64,000 bases of DNA, from the NCBI RefSeq assembly GCF_044704955.1, contig NC_091994.1:101060001-101124000 (forward strand). The letters are read 5' to 3'. The first letter of the stretch is position 1. The number at the start of each line of letters is the position of its first letter. Positions 15,988 through 55,829 of this stretch are shown here, piece after piece. The stretch is from Pristiophorus japonicus (lineage: Eukaryota). Both the position numbers and the translations under genes were made by a program. Below the pieces are notes generated by a model. It saw nothing but the letters and a program-made list of their open reading frames with translations. It made no database searches and was not told the origin of the DNA.

Positions 15988-16020
15988 AAAGACCATTATT
16001 AATATCTTAAAGAGGGATAT

Positions 16021-23853: not shown

Positions 23854-23884
23854 TAATTAATTAATTGTAAATTAGTAAATTCAA

Positions 23885-27671: not shown

Positions 27672-28061
27672 ACTTACAGTGCTTTGGATAACTCTTCTGA
27701 TACATAGCTAGGTATCTACCCAGCTTTACCTCACTACCACTTCTGTTGACCCCTCCTTGGTCTCTAAATTGTAAGATATCCAGTTCTGGGTGAGCAGAAA
27801 TTTTCTCCAATTGAGTATTGGTGTAAAGTATCTGCTTCATGGGTACCTTGCTTAAGAATTCATAGTAACACATTGCTATTAAGAACTTGTTGGTTTATTA
27901 GCAAAGGTTTAACAATCACACTACACATTACCAGTTCATCCACCAGGCTCACAACCACATGCCTCATCATGGATCCCCTAAACCCAACTGGCTGGGGTTT
28001 TATTGAGTCTTGTGAACATCACGTGACTGGCTAAGCCACTCACAACTCAACAGCTCTACAA

Positions 28062-28732
28062 CTATTTTTGTAAGAACTTTAAATCAAGTACCCCTTTTGT
28101 GAGGGCACTCGAACCCACAAATGTCCAAATTAACATGGGAACTTTACCAAATTAAATTAAAATTCTGTTCCCGGAAGTGATGATGCACTCCAGTCTCTCC
28201 GGTGTCCATCTCTCGCGGAAGGCCGCAAGCGTACCGGTGGACACCGCGTGCTCCATCTCCAGGGACACCCTGGCTTGGATGTAACCGCAGAAGAGAGGCA
28301 GACAGTCAGGCTGAATGACCCCCTCGACCGCCTGCTGCCTGGACCGGTTGTTGGCCCCCTTGGCCGTGCACAGGAGCAGTCCTACAAGGAGGCCTTCCGA
28401 TCTGCCCAATCCCCTCCGCACAGGGTGCCCAAAGATCAGGAGTGTGGGACTGAAGTGCAACCAGAATTTGAGAAGCAGCTCCTTCAAATAATGGAGTAGG
28501 GGCTGCAACCTAGCACACTCAACATAAATGGAACACGGACTCCTCTAGACCGCAGAAATTACAGGCGGCCTGGGAGTCTGTGAACCGACTTAAAAACCTA
28601 TTGCACAGGACTGCTCCGTGCAACACCCTCCAGGCCAAGTCCCCAATAAATAAAGGGAGGACTCCCGCGTAGAAAGCACTCCATTGGGGACCCCCACCTT
28701 CTCCGGAGGGCAAGATGGTGCGCCATGGCGTG
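28062..28732 (-). mobile_element. Tx1-clade (L1 group) non-LTR retrotransposon 3' fragment, unit 1
   Basis: DTPWR...DLAWRVLHGAV...RFTDSQAACNFCGLEESVFH...KFWLHFSP resembles the Xenopus Tx1 ORF2 C-terminus (zf-RVT). Flanked by TCAACAGCTCTACAA at 28047-61 and 28733-47. Confidence 0.9.
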
Positions 28733-28747
28733 TCAACAGCTCTACAA

Positions 28748-29521
28748 CTATTTTGCAGGAAACAGAAAATCATGTGGCCCCTGATTAAAGGCAGGGGACA
28801 CACCAAACATTTTCAAACAAGTGCCCCCATTTTTTTTTGAGGGCACTGAAACCCAAATTATACAAGTGCCCCCTGGCTAAAAAGGGGGGGGGGGGCATTA
28901 AACCGGTAAATTAAACAAATTAAACTTTAAACATATAAAGCCAAATTAAAATTTGATTGCCGATGATGATGATGCATTCCAGTCCCTCCAGTGCCCACCT
29001 CTCGCGGAAGGCTGCAAGCATATCGGTGGACACCGCGTGCTCCATCTCCAGGGACACCCTGGTTCGAATGTAGCCGCGGAAGCGAGGCAGGCCATCGGGC
29101 TGAACGACCCCTCCGACTGCCCGCTGCCTGGACCGGTTGTTGGCCCCCTTGGCCGTGCCCAGGAGCAGTCCTACGAGGAGGCCTTCCGACATGCCCGATC
29201 CCCTCTGCACAGGGTAGCCAAAAATCAAGAGCGTGGGACTGGAGTGCAACCAGAATTTGAGGAGCAGCCCCTTCAAATAACGGAAGAGGGGCTGCAACCT
29301 GACACACTGAACATAAACGGAACACGGACTCCTCTAGACCGCAGAAATTACAGGCGGCCTGGGAGTCTGTGAACCGACTTAAAAACCTATTGCACAGGAC
29401 TGCTCCGTGCAACACCCTCCAGGCCAAGTCCCCAATAAATAAAGGGAGGACTCCCGCGTAGAAAGCACTCCATTGGGGACCCCCACCTCCTCCGGGTGGC
29501 AAGATGGTATGCCATGGCGTG
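28748..29521 (-). mobile_element. Tx1-clade 3' fragment, unit 2
   Basis: Same ORF2 C-terminus with a longer 3' UTR. Flanked by 15-bp repeats at 28733-47 and 29522-36. Confidence 0.9.
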
Positions 29522-30179
29522 TCAACAGCCCTACAAACCTGTGAACATACTCACAGGTGCAGACTCCACAGCTGGGAAGATCGAAGCCATTGTTTTCAGT
29601 CCCTGCCAGAAACTCTGTTCCCTAGTCATTGGTTCCATCCCGCTCCCCAACTTCTGTCTGAGGCTGAACCAGGCTGTTTGTAACTTTGGTGTCATATTTG
29701 ACCCTGAAATTAGCTTTCGATCACATATCCGCTGCATAACTAAGACCGCCTATATCCACCTCCATAACATCGCCTGTCTCTGCCCTTGCTTCAGCTCATC
29801 CGCTGCTGAAGCCCTCATCCATGCCTTTGTTACCTCTAGACTTGACTATTCCAACACGCTCCTGGCTGGCCTCCCACATTCTACCCTACGTAAACTAGAG
29901 GTGATCCAAAACTCGGCTGCTCGTGTCCTAACTCGCACCAAGCTCACCCATCACCCCTGTGCTCGCTGACCTACACTGGCTCCCGGTTAAGCAACGCCAC
30001 GATTTCAAAATTCTCTTCCTTGTTTTCAAATCCATCCATGGCCTCGCCCCTCCCTATCTCTGTAATCTCCTCCAGTCCGATAACCCCCGGAGATGTCAGC
30101 GCTCCTCTAATTCTGCCCTTTTGAGCATCCCTGATTATAATCGCTCAACCATTGGTGGCCGTGCCTTCTGTTGCCTAGA

Positions 30180-30467
30180 CCAGCTCACTCAGGTGGACAT
30201 AAAAAATCCCATGGCACTATTTCAAAGAAGAGCAGGGAGTTATCCCTGGTGTCCTGTCCAATACTTATCCCTCAATCAACATAACAAAAAACAGATTATC
30301 TGGTCATTATCACATTGCTGTTTGTGGGAGCTTGTTGTGCACAAATTGGCTGCCGCGTTTCCCACATTAGGACAGTGACTGCACTCAAAAATTACTTCAT
30401 TGGCTGTAAAGCGCTTTGATATGTCCGGTGGTCGTGAAGGTGCTACATAAATGCAAGTCTTCCTTCC
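30180..30467 (+). mobile_element. Deu-domain SINE 3' part inserted in L2
   Basis: CAGGTGGACATAAAAAATCCCATGGCACTATTTC...ATAAATGCAAGTCTT; L2 sequence resumes afterwards. Confidence 0.85.
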
Positions 30468-30764
30468 CTGAGCTCTGAAAGTCCCTGCCTAAACTGCTCC
30501 ACCTCTCTACATTTCTTTCCTCCTTCAAGACGCTCCTTAAAACCTATCTCTTTGACAAAGCTTTTGGTCACCTGCCCTAATTTCTCCTTATGCAACTTGG
30601 TGTCAAATTTTTTTAAATCTCATAATACTCCTGTGAGGTACCTTGGGACATTTCACTACGTTAAAGGTGCTATATAAATACAAGTTGTTGTTGTTGTAGG
30701 TCCCTCTGATTTACAACCTACTTTAGAATGTTGAAATAGGAAGAATAATTTTACGTAAAGGAAG

Positions 30765-31115
30765 AATTGCATTTATACAATGCCTTCCCAGGTTTCTCCG
30801 AACCATCTCCCAGTACTTCACAAACAGTGACTGTTCTCATGTAGGCAAAACATGGCAGCCATTTTGCATATAGCAAGATCTCTAAAAAAGTAATGAGTCG
30901 AATGATCACAGTTAATTTTTGGTGGTGTTGGTTGAGGGAGGAATGTTGGTCAGGACACCAAGAGAACTCCCTGCCGTTCTTCAAATAGTGCTCTGGGATC
31001 TTTAACATCCACCTGAACCCCTGCAACAGGCAGACCAAACCTTAGTTTAATGTCCAGCTCGGAGGATGGGACCTCTGACAATGCAGTACTCACTCAGTAT
31101 TTTTCTGGAGTGTTA
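30765..31115 (-). mobile_element. Deu-domain SINE, diverged
   Basis: Same motif order in reverse orientation. Confidence 0.75.
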
Positions 31116-31559
31116 GAGGAGAGAGTATTGCAAAGTAAGCCAAGCTGACACATTAATACAGGGTATTACATTTACTTATGTCATGCTGTCTGTACTTTTC
31201 CTTACTTTTCAAGCATTGAGTGGGTCATATATATCACATTATTTCATATCTGCCATTGCACCCAATTCCTGTCATTGTAATTACAGGACCTTTAGTGAGT
31301 CAGAGAAAACACTGTGTAAGTGGCCTATGGGGTGGGTGAGGTATCCCAACTTCATTATACTTTAACGGTTAATACCTAAAATCTGAATCTGAGGGCCTTT
31401 CTTGTCTGCTTTCTAATGCAATATTCCTAAATTATGACCCCCCCCCCACCTTTCCAACCCAAGAGACCTTGAGGCTCTCTCTCCTTTGTGAAACAAGAAA
31501 ACACCATTCAATTATGCAGCTCCCTCCAACATGACCCAGACTACTGCTTGAATCCCAAC

Positions 31560-32050
31560 TCCCAACTCAACTTCTAATAACCTTTACACTTTTCATTTTT
31601 TTTTGCACACTATCCATCATTTGTATTACTCTATCAGACTCTTGGCTTCCAAAATTCCAGTTCTTCCAGCAATATATACTGGTCCAACTCTTTTTATTAA
31701 ATGAATCCATTGTTACTCTATTAGTTGGCCGTTTATTCCAATTTTCCATAATTCCTTAAGATATTTTTTCCAAACCTTAATTGTTTCCTCTCATTCCACT
31801 CCTGCCTCTTACTATGAAATTACTTAATCTGAATTTTATCAATTTCCTTCATCATTTTAAATATAGTGTTGTATTGTATCCCCTGCCCAACAGTCTCTGC
31901 TCTAACAAGATGAGTCTAAAAGCTTTAACTTTCTTTAGTGGTTACAGGGTATGATCTCAGTTGAGATAATTCCTTCATCTTCTCTTCTTTCAATATTCTG
32001 CAGGCGTTTAAAATGCAAGCGTGTCTTCATTCTAATCACAACCTTATCTT
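31560..32050 (-). mobile_element. Very old CR1-like remnant
   Basis: Weak similarity on minus (WNKRP...V..DSF.KK) to the CR1 ORF2 C-terminus; AT-rich decay. Confidence 0.3.
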
Positions 32051-32419
32051 CTCTCTGACTCTTCTCAATGTTGGTGGTATATGTGCACCGTGGGCATTAT
32101 CCCTTCATCTGAATTGCTCAATGAAAAAAATCATATCTATACTGTCTGGTTTTCATATCCTAGCAGCACGGTCCTAGAACTTCTGACCTCCCTCAGTCTT
32201 CCCTTCTTCCTACAAACTATAGGTTTTTAATGTTCAAGCTTGTTCCCATGTAATCACTGCTTCTCAATATATCTAATCTTCCCTACTCTTCTTAACATTG
32301 GTGGTTTCCTAACTAAGGGATTTGGTTCTTCATCCAGGTTTCTCAGTGAAGAATGAGGAATACTTATTCAACCCATCTGGATTGTGGCTTCATATTTAAG
32401 ACCCAAAGGGGACCTCGAT

Positions 32420-32506
32420 GGAAAACAAAATTGGTTGGAGTGTAAAACTGGCTGCCAATTCACTATCGCTCATTTTATGCTACCGCTCAAAATGAATTTC
32501 ACCCCA
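32420..32506. mobile_element. Half of a palindromic MITE related to 10876-11050
   Basis: GTGTAAAACTGGCTGCCAATTCACTAT...AATTTCACCCC. Confidence 0.55.
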
Positions 32507-34134
32507 TAGTCTCTTTTCACTCCTCTCCTGAAAGCGCTGACTCCTTCCTGGGCTATGGTTTTATTGGTTTTGGTAACCACCCCTCTACTGTTCCTCACTC
32601 AAATGGGAATTCTTCATGAGAGAATAGAAAATGAGTGTTGACCCATTACCTGTCCATGGTGAGTGACAGCTGAGCTCGATCTTGCCCTCCGCCAACAATC
32701 AAACACATACATTTTCCACTGAGAGGCACTGGATAGTGGGAAACGGTTGGGTTTTTCTGCCACTTTTTTTTCTTGCTTACTTAGTTTTGGCTGATTTGAC
32801 CCGAATGGAGGTCACATCCTTTCACCTCAAAAAGAAAAGATTTGCGAAGCAGCTTTTTTTCTAAGAAGGTACCTTTCTGAAATGTCTGCCCCGTGTCATT
32901 GCTAGCGTTTAATTTCCGAGTTGTGCGATGACTGAACTTTCTGATAGGAAATGCGTCAGTAGCACTGTGATGTCGTGCTGATGGGCTCATCCTGTTGCTG
33001 CCGGCACGTGAAGACCGTTTGTACCAAATCACAAAGAGATCTACAGGCTGTACCACTCGTGATCCTCCTCACACCTGTCAGAAGTGGGCCAATTTAAATC
33101 ACTAAATATTCATTTTCACAACAGTTAGAATGTAATAAATGCAAGTCTTTATTTCATAACAGTTATATCAGAAAAGTCTGAAAATTTAGTTATACTAAAA
33201 ATGGAGGGAAAAAACTGATGTTCTTTTAATAAAATGCTACATTTTTTGCAAAGTTTGTTTTGCCACTGGCCACTCGATATCTTGCAAAATTTAAATGAAG
33301 CAAATCTCTTCTGTATCGCAGTGTAAGGCAGATAATTGTTTCCATACTGCAGCTTTGAGGAGTTTAGGTCAAACTGGATGATGATCATTCTTTGGTAAAC
33401 AAGAAAATATTATACTCCTGTAATCAGCACACTTATCTTCCCTTGGACTTGTAGTTTCTGACCTCTCGTGGAGTTGGATTTCCCCGAAGGGAATCGAAAT
33501 AAACTAACGAGTACTGGGGAGGCCGAGAACTAGAGACCATGAAAGAGAGGTTGATGAGTCGAAGGGGAAACTAGCATTAAAAGTAATCAGCCTTCTTATT
33601 ATCTTATGCTGTTCTAGATTCCCAATTAGCTTTTTTTCCTTTTGGTCTCTGCCTCAGGTTGAGGGGAGCTGGTGTTGGGGGAGGGAGGATTGTGGAGGAG
33701 GGAACCGTTGAATGAACAAAGGGTCAACTTGCCTCAGGGTCTTGTCGTAGGGTGGCCATCTTGTGCCCAATCGAAAACCAGATGGGTCTCTAGTCCGGCG
33801 AATAGCAGGGAATAATGGGAAGCCGATCTGAGCAGGCATTCATGAAATGGAACGTAGGCTCGACTGCACATTTGGGTAACTAGTCTGCTCACGCACGTGC
33901 ACAGCGTTGCTTTATTTAAAAAAAAAAAGGAGTTTTTATGCCTGGTTTTCCATCGTCAAAATTATTAGGTGGGAAACACAGAACTTGATTGTCTGGTTCA
34001 AAGTTGAATAGATGGTCTTACTACCTTGTCGACCAGCTGACAGAGCATCTCAATTCTACAGCCGACATCTGACAAATGCTAATTTGTTTACAAAATCAGG
34101 ATGCAATATCACTGGTTGTGTCATCGCATCACAG

Positions 34135-34490
34135 TAACGGTATCGCCCCGTTCGGGGGCGGTAAAACTCGGTCGATGCGAGACTTAGCGCCAGGCACAGA
34201 AGTCTTGTTCCTTTCGATAAATTCAGGTTACCGGCCCCGGAAGGAAGCACTCCACTAAGGCACTAAGCACGCCACTTCCTTCCTGGGGCGGTAACAGGGC
34301 AGATACCTCAGCAGCGTTACGCACTTGGCCGCATAGCGCTGCCGCGTCTGAGGGGCTCTTCCCTCAACTAAAGGGAAGGGCCAATGCTGCCAACTCTGCA
34401 AAACAAAAAGACACCTACCGGGACCGCGGGGAGTGGGGGTGCCAGCCGGGGGTACTAACGGGAGGTGCAAAGTAGCCCAATTTCTTCCCC
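34135..34490. mobile_element. GC-rich MITE fragment
   Basis: CpG-rich block ending in GCCCAATTTCTTCCCC, a GGGG-N2-GAAATT-type terminus. Confidence 0.5.
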
Positions 34491-34669
34491 CTCATTTGTG
34501 ATTTCAGAAGAAAATCAGAAGGAAATTCCTTTAGTTGGGGGTGCTGCAATTTGCATTGGGGCCTTGCACTAGAGCTGGGGGGCTAATAAAATCAGTCAAG
34601 ACATTCACACTTACTTTTCTGAGCAAAACAGTGATCTGCTAAGCAATCAGATTCTCAGAATTCTGTGTA

Positions 34670-35075
34670 GGGGACTAGGTGGGTAAGACTCTCACCTCTG
34701 GAACATGGCTCCAATTCTAGCCCCACTGAAGGGATGAAAGTCTCTTCTGTAAGGGCCCTCTGTGAAATGAGTTTGGAGCAGGGGCCTACAATACAAAACC
34801 TCCCTCATTCACTACTAATTGGCCTTGTCATTCGAAACAGGCCTAAGGGTGGTTTGTGTGGGAAATGGATATAAACACTGCATTGATGCAGCAGTGGAAC
34901 TCATCTGAGATCAGGACTGAGGCATGTTGCAAGGATAGAGTGGAGAGAGCTTTAGTCTGCTTCTAACCAATGCTGTACCTGACCTGAGAGAGCCTGCTGC
35001 TGTCACTGGCTGTGTAAGGTGGAAAGTATTTCATTCCCCAGCACTAATATCCCTCATCTAGATAAACACTAGAAA
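34670..35075 (+). mobile_element. LF-SINE-like ancient SINE
   Basis: Ordered motifs TCACCTCT, TGTGAAATGAGTT, CTAATTGGC, TCAGG..TGAGGCA and GCTGTACCTG match my recollection of the LF-SINE consensus. Confidence 0.65.
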
Positions 35076-35890
35076 ATGGAAGTTGCAAATTTCCAAGCAA
35101 CACACCCTTGTAATTTTGTTGGCATGCCATTCATTCTGTTTTTCCTAAGCGAGGAACTTGGGACCACTGATTGCGATCCAGTTGACCCCTGGATGCAAGA
35201 GTGAGAACAAGGTCAAGCCCAGCCATGATACCCTTCATGGTAGCATAGCCGATGGACACTCGCAGACTGGGTGCCGACAAGTAGGCCAACACAGCTAGCC
35301 CCTTATGGACAGGAAAAGAAAAAATTGGCCCAAGAATAACTCTTGACTGCTGGAAAGATGTGGCCCATTTCAAAATCTGTCAGTAAACTGGATCGATCAC
35401 AGATTTTCTTTTGAATACTGTCTAAGAGTGGAATCAAAATAGTGTTTTAGTGGTATTATCAATCAACCTTTGTTCGGTTCCTTCAGAATACTAGCCCTGC
35501 CGTCTACTCATTACACAACCAGCTGTTTCTCAAATGAATGACGTTCAAAGGCCTAAACTATTGCTCCTGGCAACCTAGCATTCATTGCTATGATAAAACC
35601 CCTGATATATGCATAACTTCAGTTTGTTACTGTAGGTTAGAAGCCTTAAATCTTCCAGTAGGTTAGTTTAAACACCCAGCTGGTGAAATCAATCTCGTTA
35701 ATGGCGGATCGCATCTCCCTGGTGTCTTTTCCCTGTTTTTTCACCTCTTCCCTCCTTTTTTCCTGATGGTGTGGACTCCTTGCTGTGGTATAGGTCCAAA
35801 AGTACGAGATGTACTCCAGTACTATGCCAAACTAGTCGTTCTTTGTGCCTGGGCGTTGAGTGTCAGCAGGCTATTCGATCACAGAAGGTG

Positions 35891-38800
35891 GAACATAAGA
35901 AGATAAGAAACAGGAGCAGGAGTAGGCCATTTGTCCCCTCTAGCCTACTCTGCCATTGAATAAGATCAATGGCTGATCTGATCTTGGCCTCAACTCCACT
36001 TCACTGCCCACTTCCCAGAACCCTTCACTCACTTAGCATTCAAAAATCTGTCTACCTCCACCTTAAATATATTGAATGATCCAGCCTCCACAGCTCTTTG
36101 GGTACAGAATTCCAAAGATTCACGACCCACTGAGAGAAGAAATTCCTCCTCATCTCTGTTTTAAATGGGTGATCCCTTATTCCGAAACTATGCCCTGTAG
36201 TTCTAGATTCCCCCACGAAGGGAAACATCCTCTCTGCATCCACCCTGACAAGCCCACTCAGAATCTTATACGTTTCAATAAGATCACCTCTCATTCTTCT
36301 AAACTCCAATGAGTATAGGCCCAACCTTCTCCACCTTTATTCATCAGACAACCCCTTAGTCTCAGGAAGCAACCTTGTGAATCTTCTCTGAACTGCCTCC
36401 AAAGCAAGTGTATGTCCCTCCTTAAATAAAGAGACCAAAACTGTATGCAGTACTCCAGGTGTGGTCTCCCCAAAACCCTGTACAGTTGTAGCAGGACTTC
36501 CCTACTTTTATACTCCATCCACCTTGCCATAAAGGCCAACATTCCATTTGCCTTCCTAATTACTTGCTGTACCTGCATGCTAACATTTTGTGTTTCATGT
36601 ACAAGGACCCCCAGATCCCTCTGTACCACAGCATTTTGTAATCTCTCTCCATTTAAATAATAATTTGCTTTTTTATTTTTCCTACTAAAGTGGATAACCT
36701 CACATCTTCTCACATTATAGTCCATCTGCCAAATTTTTGCCCACTCACATAGCCTATCTATATCCCTTTGCAGATTCTTTGCGTCCTCCTCACAACTTGC
36801 TTTCCCACCTATCTTTGTAGCATCAGCAAATTTGGCTACATTACACTCGGTCCCAAGTCATTAATATAGATTGTAAATAGTTGAGGCCCCAGCATTGATC
36901 CCTGTGGCACCCCACCAGTTACAGTTTGCCAACCTGAAAATTACACATTTATCCGGACTCTCTGTTTTCTGTTAGAAACATAGAAACATAGAAATTTACA
37001 GCGCAGAAAGAGGCCATTCAGGCCCATCGTGTCTGCGCCGGCTGACAAAGAGCCACACAGCCCTTGGTCAGCAGCCCTAAAGGTTACACATAAACCTATG
37101 AACAATGACGGAAAGGCAAAGAGCACCCAGCCCAACCAATCCGCCTCATCACAACTGCAACACCCCTTATACTTAAACATTCTACACTCCACCCCAACTA
37201 GAGCCATGTGATCTCCTGGGAGAGGCAAAAACCAGATAAAAACCCAGGCCAATTTAGGGAGAAAAAATCTGAGAAAATTCCTCTCCGACCCACCCAGGCA
37301 ATCGAAACTAGTCCAGGAGATCATCCTGGCCGTACTCTATTCCCTGCAGTACTTACCATTATATCTGCTCCGTCCAACAAAAGGTCATCCAGTCTAATCC
37401 CAATTACCAGCTCTAGGTCCGTAACCCTGCAGGCTACTGCACTTTAAGTGCCCATCCAACCAGCTCTTAAAAGTGGTGAGGGTTTCTGCATCCATCACTC
37501 TTCCGAGCAGCGAGTTCCAGATCCCCACAACCTTCTGTCTAACGAAACCTCCCCTCAGATCCCCTCTAAACCTTCCACCAACCACCTTAAAACTATGTAT
37601 GCCCCCTTGTAATAGACCCCTCCACCAATGGAAATAGACCTTTATTATCCACTATGTCCAGGCCCCTCAATATTTTGTACACCTCAATGAGGTCTCCTCT
37701 CAACCTCCTCTGTTCCAATGAAAACAAACCCAGCCTATCCAATCTGTCCTCATGACTAAGATTCTCCATTCCAGGCAGCATCCTAGGAAATCTCCTCTGC
37801 ACCCTCTCTAGTGCAATCACGTCCTTCCTATAATACGGCGACCAGAACTGCACGCAATACTCCAGCTGTGGCCTAACCAAAGTATTATACAATTTAAGCA
37901 TAACCTCCCTGCTCTTATATTCTATGCCTTGGCCAATAAAGGCAAGCATTCCGTATGCCTTCTTAACCACCTTCTCCACCTGGCCTGCTACTTTCAGGGA
38001 TCTGTGGACAAGCACTCCAAGGTCCCTTTATTCATCTTCACTATTAAGTGGCCTACCGCTTAATGTGTATACCCTTTCCTTATTAGCCCTCCCACAGTGC
38101 ATCACTTCACACCTCTCTGAATTAAATTCCATTTGCCACTGCTCTGCCCACCTGGCCAGTAGATTGTTATCCTCCTGCAGCCCATGACTTCCCTCTTCAT
38201 TATTAACCACACAGCCAATTTTAGTGGCATCTGCAAACTTCTTAATTATACTCCCTATATTCAAATCTAAATCATTGATAAATACCACAGAAAGCAAGGG
38301 TCTCAGTACTGAGCCCTGCGGAACCCCACTGGAAACATCCTTCCAGTCACAAAAACATCCATCAATCATTACCCTTTGCTTCCTACCTCCAAGCCAATTT
38401 TGGATCCAACTTGACACTTTGCTCTGTATCCCATGGGCTTTAACTTTCATGACCAGTCTATTATGTGGGACCTTATCAAAAGTTTTGCTAAAGTCCATAT
38501 ATACTACATCGTACACACTACCCTCATCGACCCTCTTGGTTACCTCCTCAAAAGATTCAATCAGGTTAGTCAGACACGATCTTCCCTTAACAAATCCGTG
38601 CTCACTGTCCCTAATTAATCCTTGCCTTTCCAAATGCAGATTTATCCTATATCCATGCTAATATATTACCACAAACCATGTGAGCTCTTATCTTGTGCAG
38701 TAACCTTTTATGTAGCACCTTATCGAATGCCTTCTGGAAATCCAAATACATGACACCTAGTGGTTCCCCTTTATCCACTCTGCCCGTTACATCCTCAAAG

Positions 38801-39510
38801 AACTCCAGCAAATTTGTCAAACATGATTTCCCTTTCATAAAACCATGCTGACTCTGCTTGACTGTATTATGATTTTCTAAATGTCCTGCTACTACTTCCT
38901 TAATAATGGATTCCAGCATTTTCCCAAAGACAGATGTTAGATCAACTGGTCTGTAGTTTCCTGCTTTCCGTCTCTCTCCTTTCTTAAATAGGGGTGTTAC
39001 ATTTGCGGTTTTCCAATCCGCTGGGACCTCTCCAGAATCCAGGGAATTTTGGTAGATTACAACCAAAGCATCCACTATCTCTGCAGTCACTTCTTTTAAG
39101 GATGCAGGCCATCAGCTCCATGGGACTTGTCTACCTTTAGTCCCATTTGTTTGCCTAGTACTTTTTCTCCAGTGAGAGTGATGGTTTTAAGTTCCCCCCT
39201 CTCAATAGCCCCTTGATTATCAATTATTGGGATGCTTTTAGTGTTATCTACTGTGAAGACTGATACAAAATATTTGTTCAAAGTCTCTGCCATTTCCCTG
39301 TTTCCCATCATTAATTGCCCAGTCTCATCCTCTAAGGGACCACGTTTACTTTAGCTACTCTCTTCCTTTTTATATACCTGTAGAAGCTCTTACAGTCTGT
39401 TTTTATATTTCTTGCTAGTTTACTCTCATAAACTATCTTCTCTCTCTTTATTATTTTTTTAGTTGTCCTTTGCTGGTTTCTAAAAATTTCTCAAACCTCT
39501 GGCCTTCCAC
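35891..39510 (-). mobile_element. CR1 LINE (host copy) split by a second CR1
   Basis: ADWKTANVTPLFKKG, NYRPV, QHGFMKGKSCLTNL, LDFQKAFDKV...NILAWI | NRKQRVRIN. Reading resumes across 36973-38644. Confidence 0.93.
36973..38644 (-). mobile_element. CR1 LINE of a different subfamily, nested in the host CR1
   Basis: Own (TTTCTATG)n tail, long 3' UTR, RT motifs HGFVKGRSCLTNL, GVPQGSVL and KFAD. Confidence 0.92.
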
Positions 39511-39514
39511 TATT

Positions 39515-39670
39515 TATCACATTGTGAGGCCTTGCTGTGCGCAAAATGTACCGCATTTCCTACAGTGCAACGGTGAATAAACTTCACAAGTACTTCATTG
39601 GTTGTAAAGCATTTTGGAACATCCTGAGGCCATGAAAGGTGCTATATAAATCCAAGTTCTTTCTTTCTTA
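39515..39670 (+). mobile_element. Deu-domain SINE 3' fragment
   Basis: CTTGCTGTGCGCAAAATG...GCTATATAAATCCAAGTTCTTTCTTTC. Confidence 0.75.
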
Positions 39671-43505: not shown

Positions 43506-43534
43506 TGTATCCTTTCTGGCAATGGATGCTCATT

Positions 43535-43680: not shown

Positions 43681-44084
43681 TTTTAAAAACTGCTCTCTTA
43701 GAACTGAGCGATCATTTCAGCCCCGAGCTTGTCTGCATCTCGTCAACTCGCATCATCATTAAAAACATTTTTGAAGGTTTCTGTTACACATGGTTTTTAA
43801 ATGCAGCTGATTCCTATCAGCTCCCTCATGCTGCCCTTGCCATCCGGTTCCTTGTAGCAGTCAGTATCTGTTTGCAGTAATGATACCACCTGGCATCCAG
43901 CAAGGCCCAGGGGCTGCAGTGGGGAATATGCCAACTGGCGAGTTTAACCAATGAGTTAATTAATATCCAACAACCCTCATTGACGGTCAAAATACATGGC
44001 CTATAGCTGCACAGAAAACTAGGTGTACAAACTCAATGGATATATATATATATATATATTCCAATGTTATCCTTCCTCTCTTGC

Positions 44085-44420
44085 CTTGTTTTCGGATGCG
44101 ACGTTAAACTGAGGCCCCATCTGCTCTCTCAAGTGGACGTAAAAGATTCCTTGGCACTATTTCGAAGGAGAGCAGGGGAGTTATCCCCGGCGTCTTGGCC
44201 AATATTTATCCCTCAATTAACATGACAAAAACAGAGATTATCTGGTCATTATCACATTGCTGTTTGTGGGAGCTTGACTGTGCACAAACTGGTTGCCGCG
44301 TTTCCTACATTGCAACAGTGACTACACTTCAAATGTACTTCATTGGCTGTAAAGTGCTTTGAGACGTCCGGTGGTCACGAAAGGTGCTATATAAATCCAA
44401 GTCTTTCTTTTTTCTTTCTT
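44085..44420 (+). mobile_element. Deu-domain SINE lacking its head
   Basis: TTCGGATGCGACGTTAAACTGAGGCCCC Deu core through to the tail. Confidence 0.85.
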
Positions 44421-45844
44421 TGTGCTGTGGTACAGTTGCACTGACCGTCAGTACCTCACCGGTGTGGCCATTCAGCATATGAGCCGAGGCGGTCAATGCT
44501 GACGGGCTATCTGACTGTGAGGACGCATCACAGTGAAGACCCAATCTGTCCTCACCCCAATATTCACATGGAAACACTTTCCATCAGAAGCCATTGGATT
44601 GTGGGGGGAGGAAAGAGAGACACAACTAGGAGGGAAACAAAATCAAATTCAGAGAAAGACATTTCAATCGACCGGGTAATGATTTAAAACAATGGGATAA
44701 TCATTTGAAAAGGGATCTGATCTTATTAAGCTGTGCAGAGACCCTAGTGGAGCAAATACTGACCACCATACAAAGAGTTAAGCTCGCCTCTGCCTCTCTC
44801 ACTCTGCTTCCCAAGACTCCATTAGTGAGCGAAGGTTAATAGTGGTCCGTCAAGTTTAAAGAAGGCAGCTTCAGACCAGGATAATAATAGGCAGAATGGT
44901 TTCCAGTTTATTTCTCTTAAAAAAAAATCGTCTGAGAGCAAAAAGTCAGACATTGCTAAGGCCTGTCGGATGCCCTCCTGGATAGTATGGATTATCTCTC
45001 TGCCTCCTATTCTTGTGAAAGCCAAATAACTAGGTGTCTGTAGTGAGAGAGACTAGCCAAGCTTCTTAATCCTCCCTTCATTCATGCTCTTAATAATGTT
45101 CTTTCACGACCTCTCTGGGAATCGGGGCCAAAATGAAGGCTGATAAATTAGTTTGGAGTGAACAAGTGAAGACTAGTTGTAAAGGTCACTCAAACGTTGT
45201 TCCTGATGAGGATTTATCTCAACTGCAGCTGTGGTACACAAAGCCCTGAGCCTAAACAGTAGAAATCCGATCCTTGCTCACTAAATTACTGCACAGATAA
45301 GGCATAATAGATTTTACTCAGATCCCAACTGATGGTGTAAATGGAAGGGAGACAACATTCATTTCAGCCAAAATGTGATTTCTTTTTTTGTTAAACAGAC
45401 GCGAGGGATAAAAGTAACAAGAAGATAACACAGGGAGGTGGAGAAGCGACCATTTTATTCTCGGTTAAAATGATTGTTTCAAAAAAAATTATCGCTACAG
45501 AATCCTGTAGGACATAATTTGTCTGGTTATGTCTGCTTTGTCCAAGTCAGAAGAAAATGCTAACAGATCTCACTTGGGGAGGAGCGGGGCTGGGTATGGG
45601 GGCGGGGGGAAGCGGGGGGGGGGGGGGGGGATTGAGGGTAGTCTAATGGGCTTCAGTTTTTCAAGATTCCCACTCAACAACAACTTGCATTTATACAGCA
45701 TCTCCAGTGTAAAAAACAGTACCAAGGTGAAGTCTTGCTTCACTGATAGGCATAAGGGAACAGAGACTGAGCCAGAAAGGGAGTGATTAGGAGGGATGAT
45801 GGAAAGCTTCATCGAAGAGTTGGGCTTTAAGAAGATTTAACCTT

Positions 45845-46050
45845 TCTTCAAAACTACGTGTGCATGCCTATGTATGCATGTTTTAAAAAATGTATTCATT
45901 CATGGGATGTGGGCATCGCTGACAAGGCCAGCATTTATTTCCCATTCCTAATTGCTCTTGCGTGTTGGTGAGGCGCTTTCTTGTGTGTGCATATCTGTGC
46001 GCCTGCGTGTGCATGTGTATGTATGCATGTGTGTGCACGTGTGAGTTTGT
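45845..46050. repeat. Degenerate (GT)/(GCAT) microsatellite containing a retroposon 3' tail (45885-45960, minus)
   Basis: TG-rich alternation. The inserted tail TTCATGGGATGTGGGCATCGCTGACAAGGCCAGCATTTATT is the reverse complement of the tail at 60720-60785. Confidence 0.7.
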
Positions 46051-49000: not shown

Positions 49001-50014
49001 GAGCTTGGCTGTGATGCATTCCACAGTTGAATAGCCCATTGGCTGTCTAAACTCACCTGGGAGGAATAGCCACTGGACAAACTCCTGGAGAGACAAATGT
49101 CAGTATCTTCATATCTTCAAGGGGGGTGGGGGGGGGGGGGCGGGAAACACCGGGAAAGAAGAGACCCGAACGGGTCAATATTCATTATTCTTTCTAAACA
49201 GTGACAGACATTACAACATCAACCCGCAATATTTTGTGTTGCTGTCCTGTCCAAGGATTGCAATTCATCACCGTAAGTCAAAAAAATTACAATAGAACGT
49301 ACACATTGGCTCAAAAAATACTTTGGGAGAAAAAGAAGAAAAGCTAGGAATATTTACATTTCCGTTTGATTTTGGCAACAACCATTAATAAAATAAACAG
49401 AATCCTGCGCGCTTATAAAGCGTTGTTAAAATGTGACAGCAGCTGGGAAAATGCGCAAGATAGAAACAGCCTATTTTTTCAAAGTGAAGTCTATAATCTT
49501 TGCCGTGTAGCTCAGTGGGTAAATGACAGTCCAGGAGTGCTACTTTGAGCTACACAGGCCAGGGTGAGACTAGAGGGGTGATTCATGATCCTGCCTTGCC
49601 AGAAGGGAGGTGCACTCACAGGGACTGGGATCACAGGTCAGTGAGAGACCCAATTCACATTTACACTCGTTACCCATAATTGGTGAAGTATAAACAATAT
49701 AGCCGATGCACGCGAGTCCATATAGCTCAATGATGGCCCGCCTTCCATTTCTTTTGATTCTTCCTTTTTCAAATTAAAACAGATCTCTCCTGGAACACCA
49801 CTGCCAGTTTGGGTGTGTTACCACTTTAAAATAATGTGTGGACCCCACCGGATTTAACACCTTTGTGCTCTGGAGTCATGTCCGCCCACTGTTTAAATGC
49901 GGTCTCGCCTGGGATCCAGATGTCAGCTGTGGCTCAGTGGTAGCATTCTCACCTCTGAGTCAATAGCTGGTAGGTTCAAGTCCCACTCCAGAGACATGAG
50001 CATAAAATTTAGAC

Positions 50015-50415
50015 CAGGGGTGCCAAACATACAGCCCATGGGCCGGATCTGGCCCGCAGAACAGTTCCATCCGGCCTGCAGTGTGCGACTTAAAGTCTCC
50101 CGAGTATTGCTTCTTACAGCCCAGGAGACCTGCACTGTCAACTTTTGCCTAAATTAATCCATTGCTGATTTTAGGTAGCTTGCTAGGGATGCCTAAAAAC
50201 TGTGAGGACCAATATGACGGCAAACATGTCATCGGTGAAGGACATTGCACACAGCAATTAGTATACAATGCACCCATTTTACATCCAAAAATTGAGGCGA
50301 AATGCATACCAATTTCTACCCCAGTGTGTCCAAATAACTTTTGGCGAATGTGGCCCATGCCAAGTGCCAGAATGTCAAATCAGGCCCACCATGTAAATTG
50401 AGTTTGACATCCCTG
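50015..50415. mobile_element. hAT (Charlie-type) MITE
   Basis: TIRs CAGGGGTGCCAAAC / GTTTGACATCCCTG, GGCCCG-type subterminal motifs, target ATTTAGAC resembling NTCTAGAN; the right-hand TSD is disrupted. Confidence 0.75.
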
Positions 50416-50419
50416 ATCT

Positions 50420-50870
50420 GAAAGAAATACTTGCATTTCTATAGCGCCTTTCACAACTTCATGACATCCCAAAGTGCTTTACAGCCATTGAAGTACCTTT
50501 GAAGTATAGTCACTGTTGTAATGTAAGAAACGCAGCAGCCAATTTGCAGACAGCAAGATCCCACAAACAGCAATGTGGTAATGACCAGATAATACGTTTT
50601 GTTGATGTTGATTGAGGGAGAAATATTGGCCAGGAGACAAGGTATAACTACCCTGCTCTACTTTTAAATAGTGCCATGGAATCTTTTACATCCACCTGAG
50701 AGGGCAGACGGGGCCTCAGTTTAACATCTCGTCCAAAAGATGGCGCTCCCTCAGTGCTGTACTGGAGTGTCAGTCTAGATTTTTGTGCTCAAGTCTCTGG
50801 AGTGGATCTATGAACCCACAACCTTCTGAGTCAGAGGCGAGAGAACTACCAACTAAGCTACAGCTGACAC
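50420..50870 (-). mobile_element. Deu-domain SINE, full length
   Basis: Complete head-to-tail motif set on the minus strand. Confidence 0.85.
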
Positions 50871-51889
50871 TATGAGCTGATGCCTCAGTGCAGTACTGAG
50901 GGAGTGCTGCATTGTTGGAACTGCCATCTATGGAAGAGATGTTAAACAGAGTCATTTAACAAAAACAGATTATTTGGTCATTATCACGCTGTTTGTGGGA
51001 CCTTTCTGTGTGCAAAATGGCTGCCAGGTTTCCCTACTTTACAACTACACTTCAAAAGTACTTCATTGGCCGTAAAGCACTTCAGGACGACCTGAGGGCA
51101 TGAAAGGCGCTATGTAAATGCAAGTCTTTCCTTTCCTTTCAGATGGCATCTGTCATATCATTGGGGGCTCGGCAGCAAAATATCAGTAGTGATAAAAGAC
51201 AGAATTTAGCCCTGCGGAGCGGCAGAGTTTGAACTGTAGCTTCCTTCACGACTTTTGCAGATTTCTTTCCCTTCCCGTGTGGTTACTTTGAGTTGTTATT
51301 ACTTAATTAGCAGGATAAACTGAAGCATGATAAATGCCATTATTTACTCAGCGAAAGACCACAATCATTGTTGTTTTGACCCTTGGGGCAAAAAGGCAAA
51401 ACCCTTGGTGATTTATAAGGGGGACTATGAGTGGTGCTTTCTGTATCAGCAAGCAAGGGAATAATGTGCTGGAAGTCTCAACATAAATTCAAACACATCA
51501 CAATAAATAAAGCACGTCATTTTTTTTCTCGGCCTGAGTCCCACACTGGAAATCTCTATAAAAATCCAACACTCACTACGGAGAATTATGGCCTTACTGC
51601 TCCAAAGCCTAGTGGTTGTTATTTTTCCTGTCAAGATTCACTAGAGAAAGAATACCAGTCTGAAGTACAGCCCTCCTTTTCATTAGCTATAATAATATAA
51701 TGTGCGTAATGACCAGCAGTTGTAAGTCTTCATACATTTCATTAGCCTGGGATATGACAATATAGTAATTGAAAAGAATTTGTCCACTCCTGTCTCCTCA
51801 AACTTCTAATGTGGTAAATGAATCAATCATTGTCCCAGGAATAAACAAGGGAAGGGAGCAATTCTGCAAGTTTTTTGCAACATAATTAT

Positions 51890-52618
51890 TTGAATGTTCC
51901 AGAAATTGTGCTTTGGGGGAAGTAGGAACCTTTATTTGGATTTCACTCGCCAAATACAGGAGAGGCCTAACCCAACTAGTACAGGTAAGATCTAACCCCT
52001 CCAGTACAGGATAGGCCTAACCCACCCAGTACAGCTAACTAAACACAGGTCACAGGTCAAACCTGGAACTTTTCATGCTGGAATGGCTCAATAACATACT
52101 GGGCACTAACCAACTGAGCTCTCATGGGAGCCTTCAGTAGTGTTTATATAACTTCCCGCTGTTAATATACAGTAGGCCTAATCCTATGGAATCAAAGGGG
52201 GCATTTGACTCCTCTTTGTTAAGTGACAACTCCTTGTAGGTGAGAGAATGACTAGTTCTGAGGCATCTACACTTTAGGCTGTAATGGTGTTTGTTTAATA
52301 GGATTGATTGGATAAAGGGAACAACGTGCTTGGCATATAGCGTTTCCCTGTTACATGGGTCTAGTTTATTGTGAAAAAGCTCAATGTACTCCAGAGAAAG
52401 AGTTGATTTGAAGCGAGAATTGGGGTTGATCTGTTTGGGTTAGATCTGGGTTTAGATCTTACGTGTACTGGTTGGGTTAGGCCTCTCCTGTACTGGGTGG
52501 ATTAGGCCTATCCTGTACTGGGTGGGTTAGGCCTATCCTGTATTTGGCGAGAGAAATCCAAGTAAGGATTGCCAAAGATTTCCTACTCCCCCCAAAGCAC
52601 AATTTCTAGAACATTCAA
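51890..52618. mobile_element. Foldback-like element with about 150-bp inverted arms containing 25-bp tandem units
   Basis: TTGAATGTTCCAGAAATTGTGCTTTGGGGG... versus ...CCCCCAAAGCACAATTTCTAGAACATTCAA; unit AGTACAGGATAGGCCTAACCCACCC x3 per arm; no TSD seen. Confidence 0.75.
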
Positions 52619-53699
52619 CCTTGTTTGGTCTGGATGTTTTTGCCTGTTCATAAAAGTTATGCTCCTCCCTGCTCCTGATTCAAGAGACACCGCTGTTTGA
52701 GCAAGCTGTTTTCAGCTGATTCCTGCAAGGTACTTTATTGTGATAATACTGCCCTATTAAGTGGCGATTCAATCTCAGAAATTGTAAAGCTCCTGTGAAA
52801 TGCAGTCTTATACCTCAAAGAGTTAATGTGAAGACAACAAACATGGTTGGTATGGTGACCCATGCAACCTAATGAAGGATTTAACCTCGGGTGAAATTTT
52901 CAGGAAGCATTCAACAATTATTATTTGAAAAATCTACATTAATCAACTAGATCAGCAGTCAATTAAATCACCTGTATTATTAAGGGCTCCTGTGCACATT
53001 CAGGAATCATTCTCCTACTCAAACCCCCCTCTCCCACACAAATAACAATAAAATGGAGATTAAAAAGGGAGTGAGGGTGTTGCAAACTTGAAGGAGAGGG
53101 TGTGACTGAACAAATTCAGCGTCTAAGGACGTTAGTTTGAGGTTAAGTACCTTCAAATGAACGTTACCTGTTACGTCAGGATAAGAGGACAAAAGAATAC
53201 TTCAGAAATAAGGAGTAGCATGGAGATGAAAGTTTTGTTCATGTACCAGAGTAAATAGATCACAAAACGAGCTAGGAAGCACAGAGAAAGGCCAACCGCT
53301 GGCTGATGATGATGTGGGTTCAATAACAACCGGAGTCATAGCCATTGAAAGACAAAACACAAAATAGCAATATGTGACTGAGGAGGCCATTCCCAAACAC
53401 TCCCAATCTGACATTCCTGCAGCTATGGGTTAGTCACAACACAGTTTATCCCCTCCCCTTCCAAACATCAATGAGGGGTGAAATAGGTCTTCAGTGGAGC
53501 ACAAAACAGGCGACAGCAAATCGGCAGTCTGTTTTATACCCTGCCCGATTTCTTTTCCATTGAAATTGAAGATCAATGCCACCACCGATGTCTTTGCTAC
53601 AGTTCCCACTTTACCTTAAAAGCACGATGCCACAATACCTACAAGCACTCAAATGATTTATGTGTAATGCACAACAACAGGCATGAGTGATCTGTCACT

Positions 53700-53974
53700 G
53701 ACTAGTTTTAGCTGTGTATATTGGGTTTATTGGGGTGCTGGGACCTAAATTTATTAAAGCTAACTCACCATTGTTTTACTGGACCTCACCCGTGGCCGAC
53801 TTTAATGACCTTGATTTACGTTAGGGGTGCCGTCGGCTACGCAAGTCCTATGTTTCAGGAGCTGCCGGTCCCAGTAGTGGAACCTGTCCGAGGGGTGGGG
53901 GGGGGGGGGGTATTTTGAATGGCCCCTGCATTAATGGGGGTGCACGTGTCAAAAAACAATTAGAGGGAACATTG
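53700..53974. mobile_element. Possible hAT-like fragment (one terminus)
   Basis: Ends in TTAGAGGGAACATTG (reverse complement CAATGTTCCCTCTAA); no partner TIR found. Confidence 0.35.
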
Positions 53975-54374
53975 GACATGACCCCTCAATCGTTTTGAGG
54001 TGTCCAGCGTAGCTTTCGAGGACCTTCTCCATTTTGCTCCCAGGAACCTCTGTCATTTGTCTTTGGCCTCTAGGTTCAGCCTTCAAGTCTGTGCGGTTCC
54101 TGGCTTGGCCTTCGGATCAAGTATGTTGGCACTCCCTGTAATGTATTTGCTTCATGGGTTCTTTGCTTAAGATTTCATAGCAACACATTGCTATTAAGAA
54201 CTAGTTGATTTATTAACAAAGGTTTAACAATCACACTACACATTACCAGTTCATCCACTTGGCTCACAACTGCATACCTCATCGTGGATGACCTAGACTC
54301 AATTGACTGGGGTTTTACTGAGTCTTGTGAACATCACGTGACTGGCTAAGCCACTCACAATGCAACAGCTACAA

Positions 54375-54733
54375 CTCTTTTGTTGAGAACAAATAACCAA
54401 TGAAATCAAGTGCCCCCTGATTAAAGTTGGGGGGGGGGAATACCACAAAAACTTTTCAAGTGCCTCTTTTTTTTTAGGGCACTAAAAACCAGCAAATTAA
54501 ACAAATTAAACTTTAGACAAACATCAAAGTAAAATTTGGTTGCCGGGGGTGATGATGCACTCCAGTCCCTCCGGTGCCCACCTCTCGCGGAAGGCCGCGA
54601 GCGTACCGGTGGACACCGCGTGCTCCATCTCCAGGGACACCCTGGCCCGGATGTAACCGTGGAAGAGAGGCCGGCAGTCAGGCTGAACGACCCCCTCGAC
54701 GGCCCGCTGCCTGGACCGGCTGATGGCCCCCTT
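54375..54733 (-). mobile_element. Tx1-clade 3' fragment, unit A
   Basis: KGAISRSRQRAVEGVVQPDC...AAFRERWAPEGLECIITPGNQILL*. Flanked by TGCAACAGCTACAA at 54361-74 and 54734-47. Confidence 0.9.
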
Positions 54734-54747
54734 TGCAACAGCTACAA

Positions 54748-55181
54748 CTCTTTTGTTGCAAAACAGAAACAAACATGAAATTAAGTGCCTCCTGATTAAA
54801 GGGAAGAGGGAAACACTCCAACCAGTTTTCAAGTGCCCTTTTTTATTTTGTTTTTTTTTGTGTTTTTTTGTGGGCATTAAAACCACAAATTATACAAGTG
54901 CCCCCTATAAAAGGGCAGGGGGACACTAAAACCCGGCAATTAAAACAAATTAAACTTTAAAACATATAAAATCAAATTAAAATTTGGTTGCCGGGGATAA
55001 TGATGTACTACAGTCCCTCCGGTGCCCACCTATCGCAGAAGGCCGCGAGCGTACCGGTGGACACCGCGGGCTCCATCTCTAAGGACACCCTGGCGCGGAT
55101 GTAACCGTGGAAGAGAGACAGGCAGTCGGGCTGAACGACCCCCTCGACGGCCCGCTGCCTGGACCGGCTGATGGCCTCCTT
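54748..55181 (-). mobile_element. Tx1-clade 3' fragment, unit B
   Basis: Same ORF2 end with a different 3' UTR. Flanked by repeats at 54734-47 and 55182-95. Confidence 0.9.
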
Positions 55182-55195
55182 TGCAACAGCTACAA

Positions 55196-55392
55196 CTCTT
55201 TTGGGGTAAACAAAATTAAACATTAAATCAAGTACCCCCTGATCTGGGGGTCACTCCAAACACTTTTCACATGCCCTTTTTTGTTGTTGTTTTTTTTGGT
55301 GATTTTTGTGGGGATTTTTTGTGATTTTTTTGGGGGTATTAAAATCATATAATTTACAAGTGTCCCCTATAAAAGGAGAGGGGGACACTAAA
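55196..55392 (-). mobile_element. Tx1-clade 3' UTR-only fragment, unit C
   Basis: Same CTCTTTTG terminus and CAAGT(G/A)CCCC modules. Flanked by repeats at 55182-95 and 55393-406. Confidence 0.8.
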
Positions 55393-55829
55393 TGCAACAG
55401 CTACAAACCTGTGAGCATATTCACAGGTGCATACATTATACTCCCCAGTTCTCACCTCGGGTTTCCTTCTTGTCAAGTTGGCAAGTCTCGAGTTCAAACA
55501 CCCCTATCCCCACCAAGTTGGTCAAATCCAACTGAGCAGTCCCAGCACCTCACTAATCCCAGTATCAAATCAGCTTTTCACTAACAGATTGCACCATTTT
55601 CTCAATGGCCGCCACCCAGTTTTGTATCTGTTCGACTCGCAGCAGTAGGCTCTGCCTTCAATTCGCTGATCTGAGCTGGGGCTGTGGTTGAGGTGCTTCA
55701 ATTGGCTTCAGCACTCCTAAGAAAAACAGTTAGAAATAAAAGGGCAAAGTTTGCCCTCACCAACAGTTATGGGAAAGGAAACCTTAATTAAAAAATTCAA
55801 GATCACAAAATGAAAGGAGTGTTTTCGAG

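What the first reader, a model, noticed from the sequence alone, without database searches (positions are those of the whole stretch)
28047..55406. Neighbouring Tx1 units share an identical 5' truncation point but have different 3' UTRs
Seen: units 1 and 2 both end at ...GCCATGGCGTG|TCAAC, and units A and B both end at ...GATGGCC(C/T)CCTT|TGCAAC. Yet the 3' UTRs within each pair differ strongly in length and sequence, and the termini are locus-specific (CTATTTT at locus 1, CTCTTTTG at locus 2). Random 5' truncation should not coincide in both pairs. Inference: either the new cDNA switches template onto the resident copy and reads through its 5' junction and TSD to complete integration, or units arise by tandem duplication followed by rapid UTR turnover. 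The first model would mean homology-assisted, possibly polarised array growth.
Basis: partly seen in the sequence, partly recalled or inferred. Interest (0 to 1): 0.72.

Follow-up and report, generated by a model that had tools for sequence, protein, structure and literature searches.

The report
Stacked retrotransposons share copied 5' ends
Short jumping-gene fragments that pile up at one fixed site in a fish-like genome appear to have copied their front end from the copy already there, which hints at an undescribed twist on a known stacking process, but only two stacks were seen.

Summary
Five 5'-truncated L1/Tx1-type units lie in two head-to-tail arrays (u2-u1; C-B-A), each unit bounded by a 14-15 bp target-site duplication, at the same site of a 272-bp LTR-like repeat. 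u1/u2 and A/B end at the same base; C does not.

Neighbours also share damage that is rare in the family, so their 5' parts descend from one DNA copy; a truncation hotspot is unlikely. Plain duplication fits A/B poorly: private changes 2 vs 10 (p 0.039), and UTR divergence exceeds ORF divergence (22/155 vs 12/201, p 0.011). A looks chimeric: 75-100 nt of B's 5' end on a younger 3' end.

Best reading (0.42): a new cDNA primed beside the resident invades it and copies its 5' junction (SDSA-like), growing the array at the 3' side. Conversion uncoupled from insertion (0.33) gives the same product. Site-specific Tx1, TSD-separated tandems and cDNA-to-DNA switching are each known; I did not find this combination described. 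Evidence: two arrays only.

The parts
27822..28046 (.). Host repeat, left part, locus 1 (LTR-like, about 272 bp in all)
   Evidence: 22 mismatches in 219 aligned bases to 54142-54360; sharp end with varied flanks in 217 and 317 contigs
28047..28061 (.). Target-site duplication, locus 1, copy 1 (15 bp)
   Evidence: 218 and 284 contigs run on from 28061 into the host right part, i.e. empty sites
28062..28732 (-). Unit u1: short one-hairpin 3' UTR plus ORF2 C-terminal fragment
   Evidence: hairpin z -2.57, 6 of 200 shuffles as good
28530..28699 (-). 170-bp tract identical in u1 and u2 (partner 29319-29488): late gene conversion; a shared 2-nt frameshift lies just outside it at about 28527/29317
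   Evidence: 0 of 170 mismatches; 0 of 200000 permutations reach this run; frameshift absent from other copies shown (tables 4, 7)
28733..28747 (.). Target-site duplication between u1 and u2
   Evidence: identical to copy 1
28748..29521 (-). Unit u2: three-hairpin 3' UTR plus ORF2 fragment, same 5' end as u1
   Evidence: weak zf-RVT match, E 0.021, below cut-off
29522..29536 (.). Target-site duplication, locus 1, copy 3 (1 mismatch)
   Evidence: the differing base is private, 98% of depth reads otherwise (row 29530)
29537..29570 (.). Host repeat, right part, locus 1 (matches to 29561, last bases degenerate)
54137..54360 (.). Host repeat, left part, locus 2; begins with a 10-bp terminal inverted repeat, preceded by the 5-bp duplication CTCCC
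   Evidence: and sequence
54361..54374 (.). Target-site duplication, locus 2, copy 1 (14 bp; all 4 copies identical)
54375..54733 (-). Unit A: two-hairpin UTR plus open ORF2 tail; inferred chimera with a switch between about 54634 and 54660
   Evidence: 2 private changes in 209 nt; variants shared with B at positions 14 and 74 from the junction only
54734..54747 (.). Target-site duplication between A and B
54748..55181 (-). Unit B: three-hairpin UTR plus decayed ORF2 tail with a stop codon, same 5' end as A
   Evidence: 10 private changes in 209 nt
55182..55195 (.). Target-site duplication between B and C
55196..55392 (-). Unit C: 3' UTR only, its own 5' end
   Evidence: 17-26% non-CpG divergence from the other four UTRs
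55393..55406 (.). Target-site duplication, locus 2, copy 4
55407..55440 (.). Host repeat, right part, locus 2, followed by the 5-bp duplication CTCCC

Best explanation
SHOWN: an L1/Tx1-type non-LTR retrotransposon inserts at one site of a 272-bp LTR-like repeat, makes a 14-15 bp duplication, and so regenerates its target and stacks. Neighbouring units share their 5' segment by descent from one decayed DNA copy. INFERRED: when a new copy is primed at the duplication downstream of a resident, its cDNA leaves the RNA, invades the homologous resident a few hundred bases away, is extended through the resident's 5' junction and upstream duplication, and anneals by that duplication to the cut top strand (synthesis-dependent strand annealing). 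The product is a chimera: the resident's 5' end on a 3' end and UTR from another master. Growth would be at the 3' side (C oldest, then B, then A; u2, then u1). A unit too short to hold coding homology (C) cannot be captured this way, which fits B not sharing C's end. Later conversion between neighbours (170 bp at locus 1) blurs the signal.
For: Exact shared junctions in 2 of 3 neighbour pairs. Bases shared by u1 and u2 but read otherwise in 99% or more of contig depth: 28351/29140 and 29198 (u1 28409), both outside the conversion tract; 28351 changes an isoleucine of the A-I-N-R-S-R-Q motif kept in 4 of 5 homologues at that column, valine in the fifth. A/B share two variants against u1/u2 within 74 nt of the junction and no clear one in the next 134 nt, where private changes are A 1, B 8. 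Whole tail A 2, B 10 (sign test p 0.039). A/B UTR non-CpG divergence 22/155 vs ORF 12/201 (p 0.011; strict filter 13/92, p 0.025), equal to the cross-locus level (u2/B 28/191, u2/A 20/139). Counts fit downstream growth (expected A 2.7, B 6.3) and not upstream growth (p 0.014 and 0.006). u1's UTR shares a 16-nt word with C at the other locus but only 10 nt with u2, keeps an intact hairpin, and one contig shows another copy with a UTR of u1's length at the same target (record 1, 28017-28195, 23 other letters, 7 gaps). Precedent for cDNA pairing with nearby DNA, akin to SDSA: passage in 10.1101/2024.08.27.596794.
Against: Two arrays only. The A/B boundary was chosen after seeing the data and several informative sites are CpG (74, 135). 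UTRs are more diverged than ORFs in all 6 unit pairs (ratio 1.2-2.8) and are rich in homopolymers and hairpins, so local hypermutation or misalignment may add to the excess. u1/u2: private changes 13 vs 15 (p 0.85), UTR excess not significant (p 0.25; strict 0.059), no switch point visible in the ORF, and 5 of 33 bases next to the junction differ, with a private change in each unit (28700, 29496). The 170-bp tract is most simply read as homogenisation without insertion. For R1, tandem growth is reported at the 5' duplication, the opposite side (PMC2718515). Nothing ties the copying to the moment of insertion.
Confidence: 0.42

Rival explanations
1. Recombination uncoupled from insertion. Either units are duplicated as DNA and the downstream unit's 3' end is later replaced by ectopic conversion from a younger paralogue (all copies share the same host flank as an anchor), or two independent insertions are followed by break repair that copies the neighbour's 5' junction using the duplication as landing site.
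For: A homogenised 170-bp tract exists at locus 1 (0/170 vs 5/33 next to it, p 9e-5). In both arrays the odd UTR is on the unit touching the 225-bp host flank, as flank-anchored conversion predicts. It explains the same chimerism of A.
Against: Needs two events per locus at both loci. At locus 1 the only homology beyond the junction is the 15-bp duplication. B's terminus resembles A's more than C's, so no double-ended conversion using C is visible (alignment). The three-unit unequal-crossover version fails: C has no coding part to donate B's old tail, and counts misfit.
Confidence: 0.33
2. Plain tandem duplication of a whole unit between its two duplications, then neutral decay with fast UTR turnover by slippage and hairpin deletion.
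For: Explains shared junctions, shared rare variants and shared termini at once. u1/u2 decay is symmetric (13 vs 15). A's shorter UTR is one module lost between similar motifs. UTRs diverge faster than ORFs in every pair.
Against: A/B asymmetry p 0.039 and UTR excess p 0.011-0.025, combined about 0.008. A/B UTRs are no closer than cross-locus UTRs, and exceed the 19/224 non-CpG divergence of the two host repeats, which are older than the units. A UTR of u1's length exists in another copy (one contig).
Confidence: 0.15
3. Independent insertions that end at the same base: a microhomology or RNA-structure hotspot, or a short non-autonomous master with a fixed 5' end.
For: A 2-nt match to the duplication at the u1/u2 junction (loose ends at 28734 in 54 contigs). 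Contigs with the u1/u2 junction would align without a joint, so cannot count them.
Against: The two loci use different points. None or one base of microhomology at A/B. Other 5' ends joined to the duplication appear at 28442, 29279 and 28755, while the A/B point is not among the 15 joints shown of 962; table 6 lists no place where many molecules end. Shared variants are rare in the family.
Confidence: 0.07
4. Assembly or polishing artefact that homogenised neighbouring copies (would explain the 170-bp tract, less so the junctions).
For: The tract is of short-read scale; no listed contig spans the stretch.
Against: Units differ by 7-15% elsewhere and right up to the u1/u2 junction; duplications and host ends are coherent at both loci.
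Confidence: 0.03

Closest known systems
Crocodilian Tx1-Mar group, Tx1-8_Crp / Tx1-4_AMi and SINEU-3 (PMC4494074)
   Same: Tx1 families that target another transposon, two of them LTR retrotransposons; tandem SINEU-3 copies sandwiching a 16-bp duplication, ascribed to sequential insertion (sections 14, 15).
   Different: The parts read say nothing of shared 5' truncations or chimeric neighbours; here the host is a shark-like genome and the target a 272-bp LTR-like repeat. Its supplements (target sites) were not read.
Drosophila R1 tandem arrays (PMC2718515; 10.1101/158386)
   Same: Site-specific APE-type element, units separated by a 14-bp duplication, arrays built by re-insertion; identical junctions ascribed to amplification of one event.
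   Different: R1 is said to add at the resident's 5' duplication; here the younger 3' end lies downstream. Identical junctions in R1 arrays are whole-unit amplifications, not chimeras.
L1 templated insertions and chimeric L1s by SDSA-like repair
   Same: Nascent cDNA leaves the RNA and copies nearby DNA during integration (passage in 10.1101/2024.08.27.596794). Chimeras between new cDNA and resident L1 (Gilbert et al. 2002/2005) are recalled; the paper was not held.
   Different: In L1 these are sporadic events at unselected sites; here site specificity would put a homologous resident beside every re-insertion and make it a recurrent way to build arrays.
R2 5' junction formation by annealing to upstream target DNA
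   Same: Homology between cDNA end and upstream DNA completes the 5' junction ('anneal' junctions, PMC11371274; Fujimoto et al. 2004 recalled, not held).
   Different: R2 uses target sequence carried in its own RNA and a different endonuclease class; here the homology would come from a resident copy.

Membership tests
L1/Tx1-group non-LTR retrotransposon | ORF2 with RT followed by a zf-RVT cysteine motif | tested here: met
   Window fragment matches P0003 at 63% (E 6.6e-41); P0003 has RVT_1 and zf-RVT below curated cut-offs, matches human L1 ORF2p (E about 1e-6) and RVT_1/zf-RVT atlas clusters. The window's own piece hits zf-RVT only weakly (E 0.021).
L1/Tx1-group non-LTR retrotransposon | 5'-truncated copies flanked by target-site duplications | tested here: met
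   7 duplications of 14-15 bp around 5 truncated units.
L1/Tx1-group non-LTR retrotransposon | APE endonuclease and ORF1 | tested here: inconclusive
   Not in the window. 8 of 28 relatives of P0003 carry PF03372; a search for longer forms found none.
Tx1 clade | Placement by RT phylogeny with named Tx1 families | not testable with these tools
The window holds no RT of this element and no named Tx1 reference was returned.
Tx1 clade | Target-sequence specificity | tested here: met
   2 of 2 loci at the same site of one repeat; empty sites in 218 and 284 contigs; other 5' ends joined to the same duplication. Share of all family copies at this site not measured.
Solo LTR (host repeat) | TG...CA ends, short terminal inverted repeat, 4-6 bp duplication | tested here: met
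   Locus 2: 10-bp inverted termini with one mismatch and a 5-bp duplication; other copies end in CA (loose ends at 29561).
Solo LTR (host repeat) | Copies attached to an internal gag-pol region | tested here: inconclusive
   Loose ends shown have varied flanks (agreement 0.33-0.5); a MITE is not excluded.
Sequential-insertion tandem (R1/SINEU-3 type) | Independent 5' ends in neighbouring units | tested here: not met
   Independent in 1 of 3 neighbour pairs (C/B); shared in u1/u2 and A/B.
Plain DNA tandem duplication | Uniform and symmetric divergence along both units | tested here: not met
   A/B asymmetric and UTR-biased; u1/u2 symmetric but non-uniform.
Insertion-coupled SDSA chimera | Switch occurs during target-primed reverse transcription | not testable with these tools
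   Needs population haplotypes or an integration assay.

The most novel reading that the evidence does not exclude
For this site-specific element, capture of the resident's 5' end by the incoming cDNA is a regular way to finish integration, so arrays grow in one direction, propagate one truncation point, and keep shuffling old coding fragments with new UTRs.
Probability: 0.35. Interest if true: 0.68.

Novelty: new variant of a known kind. Interest (0 to 1): 0.46.

Why it matters
How non-LTR retrotransposons join their 5' end is still unsettled. Site-specific arrays put a homologous template beside each new insertion, so thousands of natural events could be counted in one genome: how often cDNA invades a neighbour, where it switches, and on which side arrays grow. 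It would also mean that identical junctions in TE tandems, usually read as unequal crossing-over, can come from new insertions. If it is only duplication plus conversion, it is an ordinary case of tandem TE turnover, with an apparently undescribed target site as the residue.

Tried and rejected
No whole genome is held, so arrays could not be counted. Scans for more loci found none: viral contigs, metagenome contigs. Earlier scan notes: nothing in 3 look-ups. Rfam and ARAGORN found no RNA gene in the window, so an snRNA or tRNA target was dropped. A search for full-length ORF2 relatives found none. Whole-UTR folding of B was not significant (z -1.38, 21 of 200 shuffles as good). Rejected: recent read-through at locus 1 as the cause of the 170-bp tract (each unit has a private change between tract and junction); the shared frameshift as proof of old copying (it abuts the tract and may have been converted); a three-unit unequal crossover for C-B-A; upstream growth for A/B; the 36-bp identical run at 28334-28369 as a second tract (0.0075 per start, about 50 starts, so expected by chance); locus-specific termini as strong evidence (one base). 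The two organism-B runs gave zero depth over 27863-28075 while covering the coding part; missing cover in contigs proves nothing, so it is listed only here. Two papers wanted as precedent were not held.
Full report
1. The observation. The window is repeat-rich animal DNA; relatives of the element's protein come from sharks and turtles, so a cartilaginous fish is my inference. A self-comparison finds the element only at 28.0-29.5 kb and 54.4-55.4 kb. Locus 1 reads duplication, u1 (28062-28732), duplication, u2 (28748-29521), duplication. Locus 2 reads duplication, A (54375-54733), duplication, B (54748-55181), duplication, C (55196-55392), duplication. The three duplications at locus 1 are 15 bp with one mismatch; the four at locus 2 are 14 bp and identical.

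2. What the element and its target are. The coding fragment is the C-terminal end of an L1/Tx1-type ORF2: 63% identical to P0003, which carries RT and zf-RVT traces and matches human L1 ORF2p. The clade Tx1 could not be tested by phylogeny. Both arrays sit at one site of a 272-bp repeat, which at locus 2 has 10-bp inverted ends and a 5-bp duplication, like a solo LTR; a MITE is not excluded. I laid contigs of 4 of the 13 runs listed; X1 and X4 are one sample and may be the window's own source. They show the empty target (218 and 284 contigs run from 28061 into the host's right part), sharp host ends with varied flanks, and other 5' ends joined to the same duplication at 28442, 29279 and 28755. 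These tables are cut: 40 of 593 variant rows, 12 of 32 indel rows, 15 of 962 joints, 24 of 5296 loose ends and 32 of 178875 pieces were shown.

3. Neighbours share DNA ancestry at the 5' side. u1 and u2 both carry bases that 99% or more of contig depth reads otherwise: 28351/29140, 29198 (u1 28409, row shown for u2 only) and 28674/29463, plus a 2-nt frameshift near 28527/29317. The first two lie outside the converted tract described below. A and B share two changes against u1/u2, at 14 and 74 nt from the junction; the second is a CpG site. The u1/u2 junction has a 2-nt match to the duplication; the A/B junction has none or one base. With different points at the two loci, a hotspot is unlikely, though cannot count other copies with the u1/u2 junction because they would align without a joint.

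4. Locus 2 does not look like plain duplication. Over the 209-nt tail common to four units, private changes are A 2, B 10 (p 0.039); beyond position 75 they are 1 and 8, and B's include a stop codon. Non-CpG divergence of A and B is 12/201 in the ORF but 22/155 in the UTR (p 0.011; 13/92, p 0.025 after removing columns near gaps and long homopolymers). That UTR figure equals the cross-locus level (u2/B 28/191; u2/A 20/139) and exceeds the 19/224 between the two host repeats, which must be older than the units. Combined p is about 0.008. The counts fit A as the newcomer with 75-100 nt of B's 5' end (expected A 2.7, B 6.3; seen 1, 8) and misfit B as the newcomer (p 0.014, 0.006). Caveats: the boundary was picked after seeing the data, numbers are small, and UTR divergence exceeds ORF divergence in all 6 pairs (ratio 1.2-2.8).

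5. Locus 1 is mixed. u1 and u2 differ at 23/173, 21/179, 0/170 and 5/33 positions from the 3' to the 5' end of the coding part. The 170-bp run is far beyond chance (0 of 200000 permutations), and each unit has a private change between it and the junction (28700, 29496). So it is a late gene conversion (or a polishing artefact), not a recent read-through. Private decay is symmetric, 13 vs 15, so both units are old and no polarity shows. The UTR carries the only hint of a different source: u1's is half as long, shares a 16-nt word with C but only 10 nt with u2, keeps an intact hairpin, and one contig shows another copy of similar length at the same target (record 1). The substitution excess is not significant (p 0.25; strict 0.059).

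6. Mechanism. Shown: site-specific stacking, shared 5' ancestry, a homogenised tract between neighbours. Inferred: a cDNA primed at the downstream duplication invades the resident, is extended through its 5' junction and duplication, and anneals back (0.42). A nick within the resident's last T-rich bases would also explain why all units of a locus share one terminus, but that is a one-base signal. Conversion uncoupled from insertion gives the same product (0.33); plain duplication 0.15; hotspot or short master 0.07; artefact 0.03. Sequence from two loci cannot separate the first two.

7. Comparison with the literature. PMC4494074 (passages, sections 14 and 15): Tx1 families that target transposons, including LTR elements, and tandem SINEU-3 around a duplication by sequential insertion; supplements not read. 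PMC2718515 (passages): R1 tandems separated by the 14-bp duplication, said to grow at the 5' side; identical junctions ascribed to amplification. 10.1101/158386 (abstract, sections 8 and 14): tandem dimers by double insertion. 10.1101/2024.08.27.596794 (passages): L1 templated insertions akin to SDSA. PMC11371274 (passages): R2 anneal junctions. PMC1920257 (passages): considers SDSA for endonuclease-independent L1 insertions and does not favour it. Gilbert et al. and Fujimoto et al. are recalled only (not held). Eight searches listed no paper whose title or abstract start describes neighbour-copied 5' ends in site-specific arrays, or this target; the library lacks most subscription papers and Repbase, so this is weak evidence of novelty.

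8. Verdict. A real feature and a new variant of known processes. Each ingredient has precedent; the interesting claim, insertion-coupled capture with one-sided growth, has moderate support at one locus and little at the other. It is cheaply testable in a whole genome. Interest 0.46.

Noticed in passing
window 28530-28699 / 29319-29488: 170-bp tract of perfect identity between units that are 13-15% diverged on both sides; late gene conversion or polishing artefact.
   Followed up: partly
window 27822-29570 and 54137-55440: The 272-bp LTR-like host repeat is very abundant in organism A contigs, mostly with an empty target; at locus 1 it is itself inserted in a CR1/L2-like LINE (joints 27812-27821 to 29573-29587 in both organisms laid; family name recalled).
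   Followed up: partly
window 28755 to 29523 (joint): 3 and 4 contigs show only about 8 bases of the element terminus between two duplications: possibly abortive insertions at other loci.
   Followed up: no
window 28062-28158, 28748-28947, 54375-54532, 54748-54980, 55196-55392: The 3' UTRs are built of one to three similar hairpin modules with homopolymer loops; module number differs between units.
   Followed up: partly
window 12106-16226: LTR retrotransposon with protease, RT, RNase H and integrase in Gypsy order, two 205-bp LTRs 95% identical, a 5-bp duplication and a primer-site-like motif; its reading frame is split into several ORFs.
   Followed up: no
window 7670-9028 (-): 452-aa open frame of a DDE_Tnp_4 (Harbinger-like) transposase, E 4e-37, with a 201-aa frame beside it at 6957-7562.
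   Followed up: no
window 24905-27640 (+), 38028-39492, 63203-64000: Fragments of other LINEs; RT domains at 26088-27041 and 38028-38657.
   Followed up: no
window 2731-3155, 10394-10825, 23881-24291, 30183-30471, 44089-44425, 50420-51139 and others: A dozen or more copies of a 70-85% identical SINE-like repeat; no Rfam match.
   Followed up: no
P0007, P0014: Two annotated shark protein models appear to include pieces of this element (83% identity over short stretches): likely gene-model contamination or exonisation.
   Followed up: no
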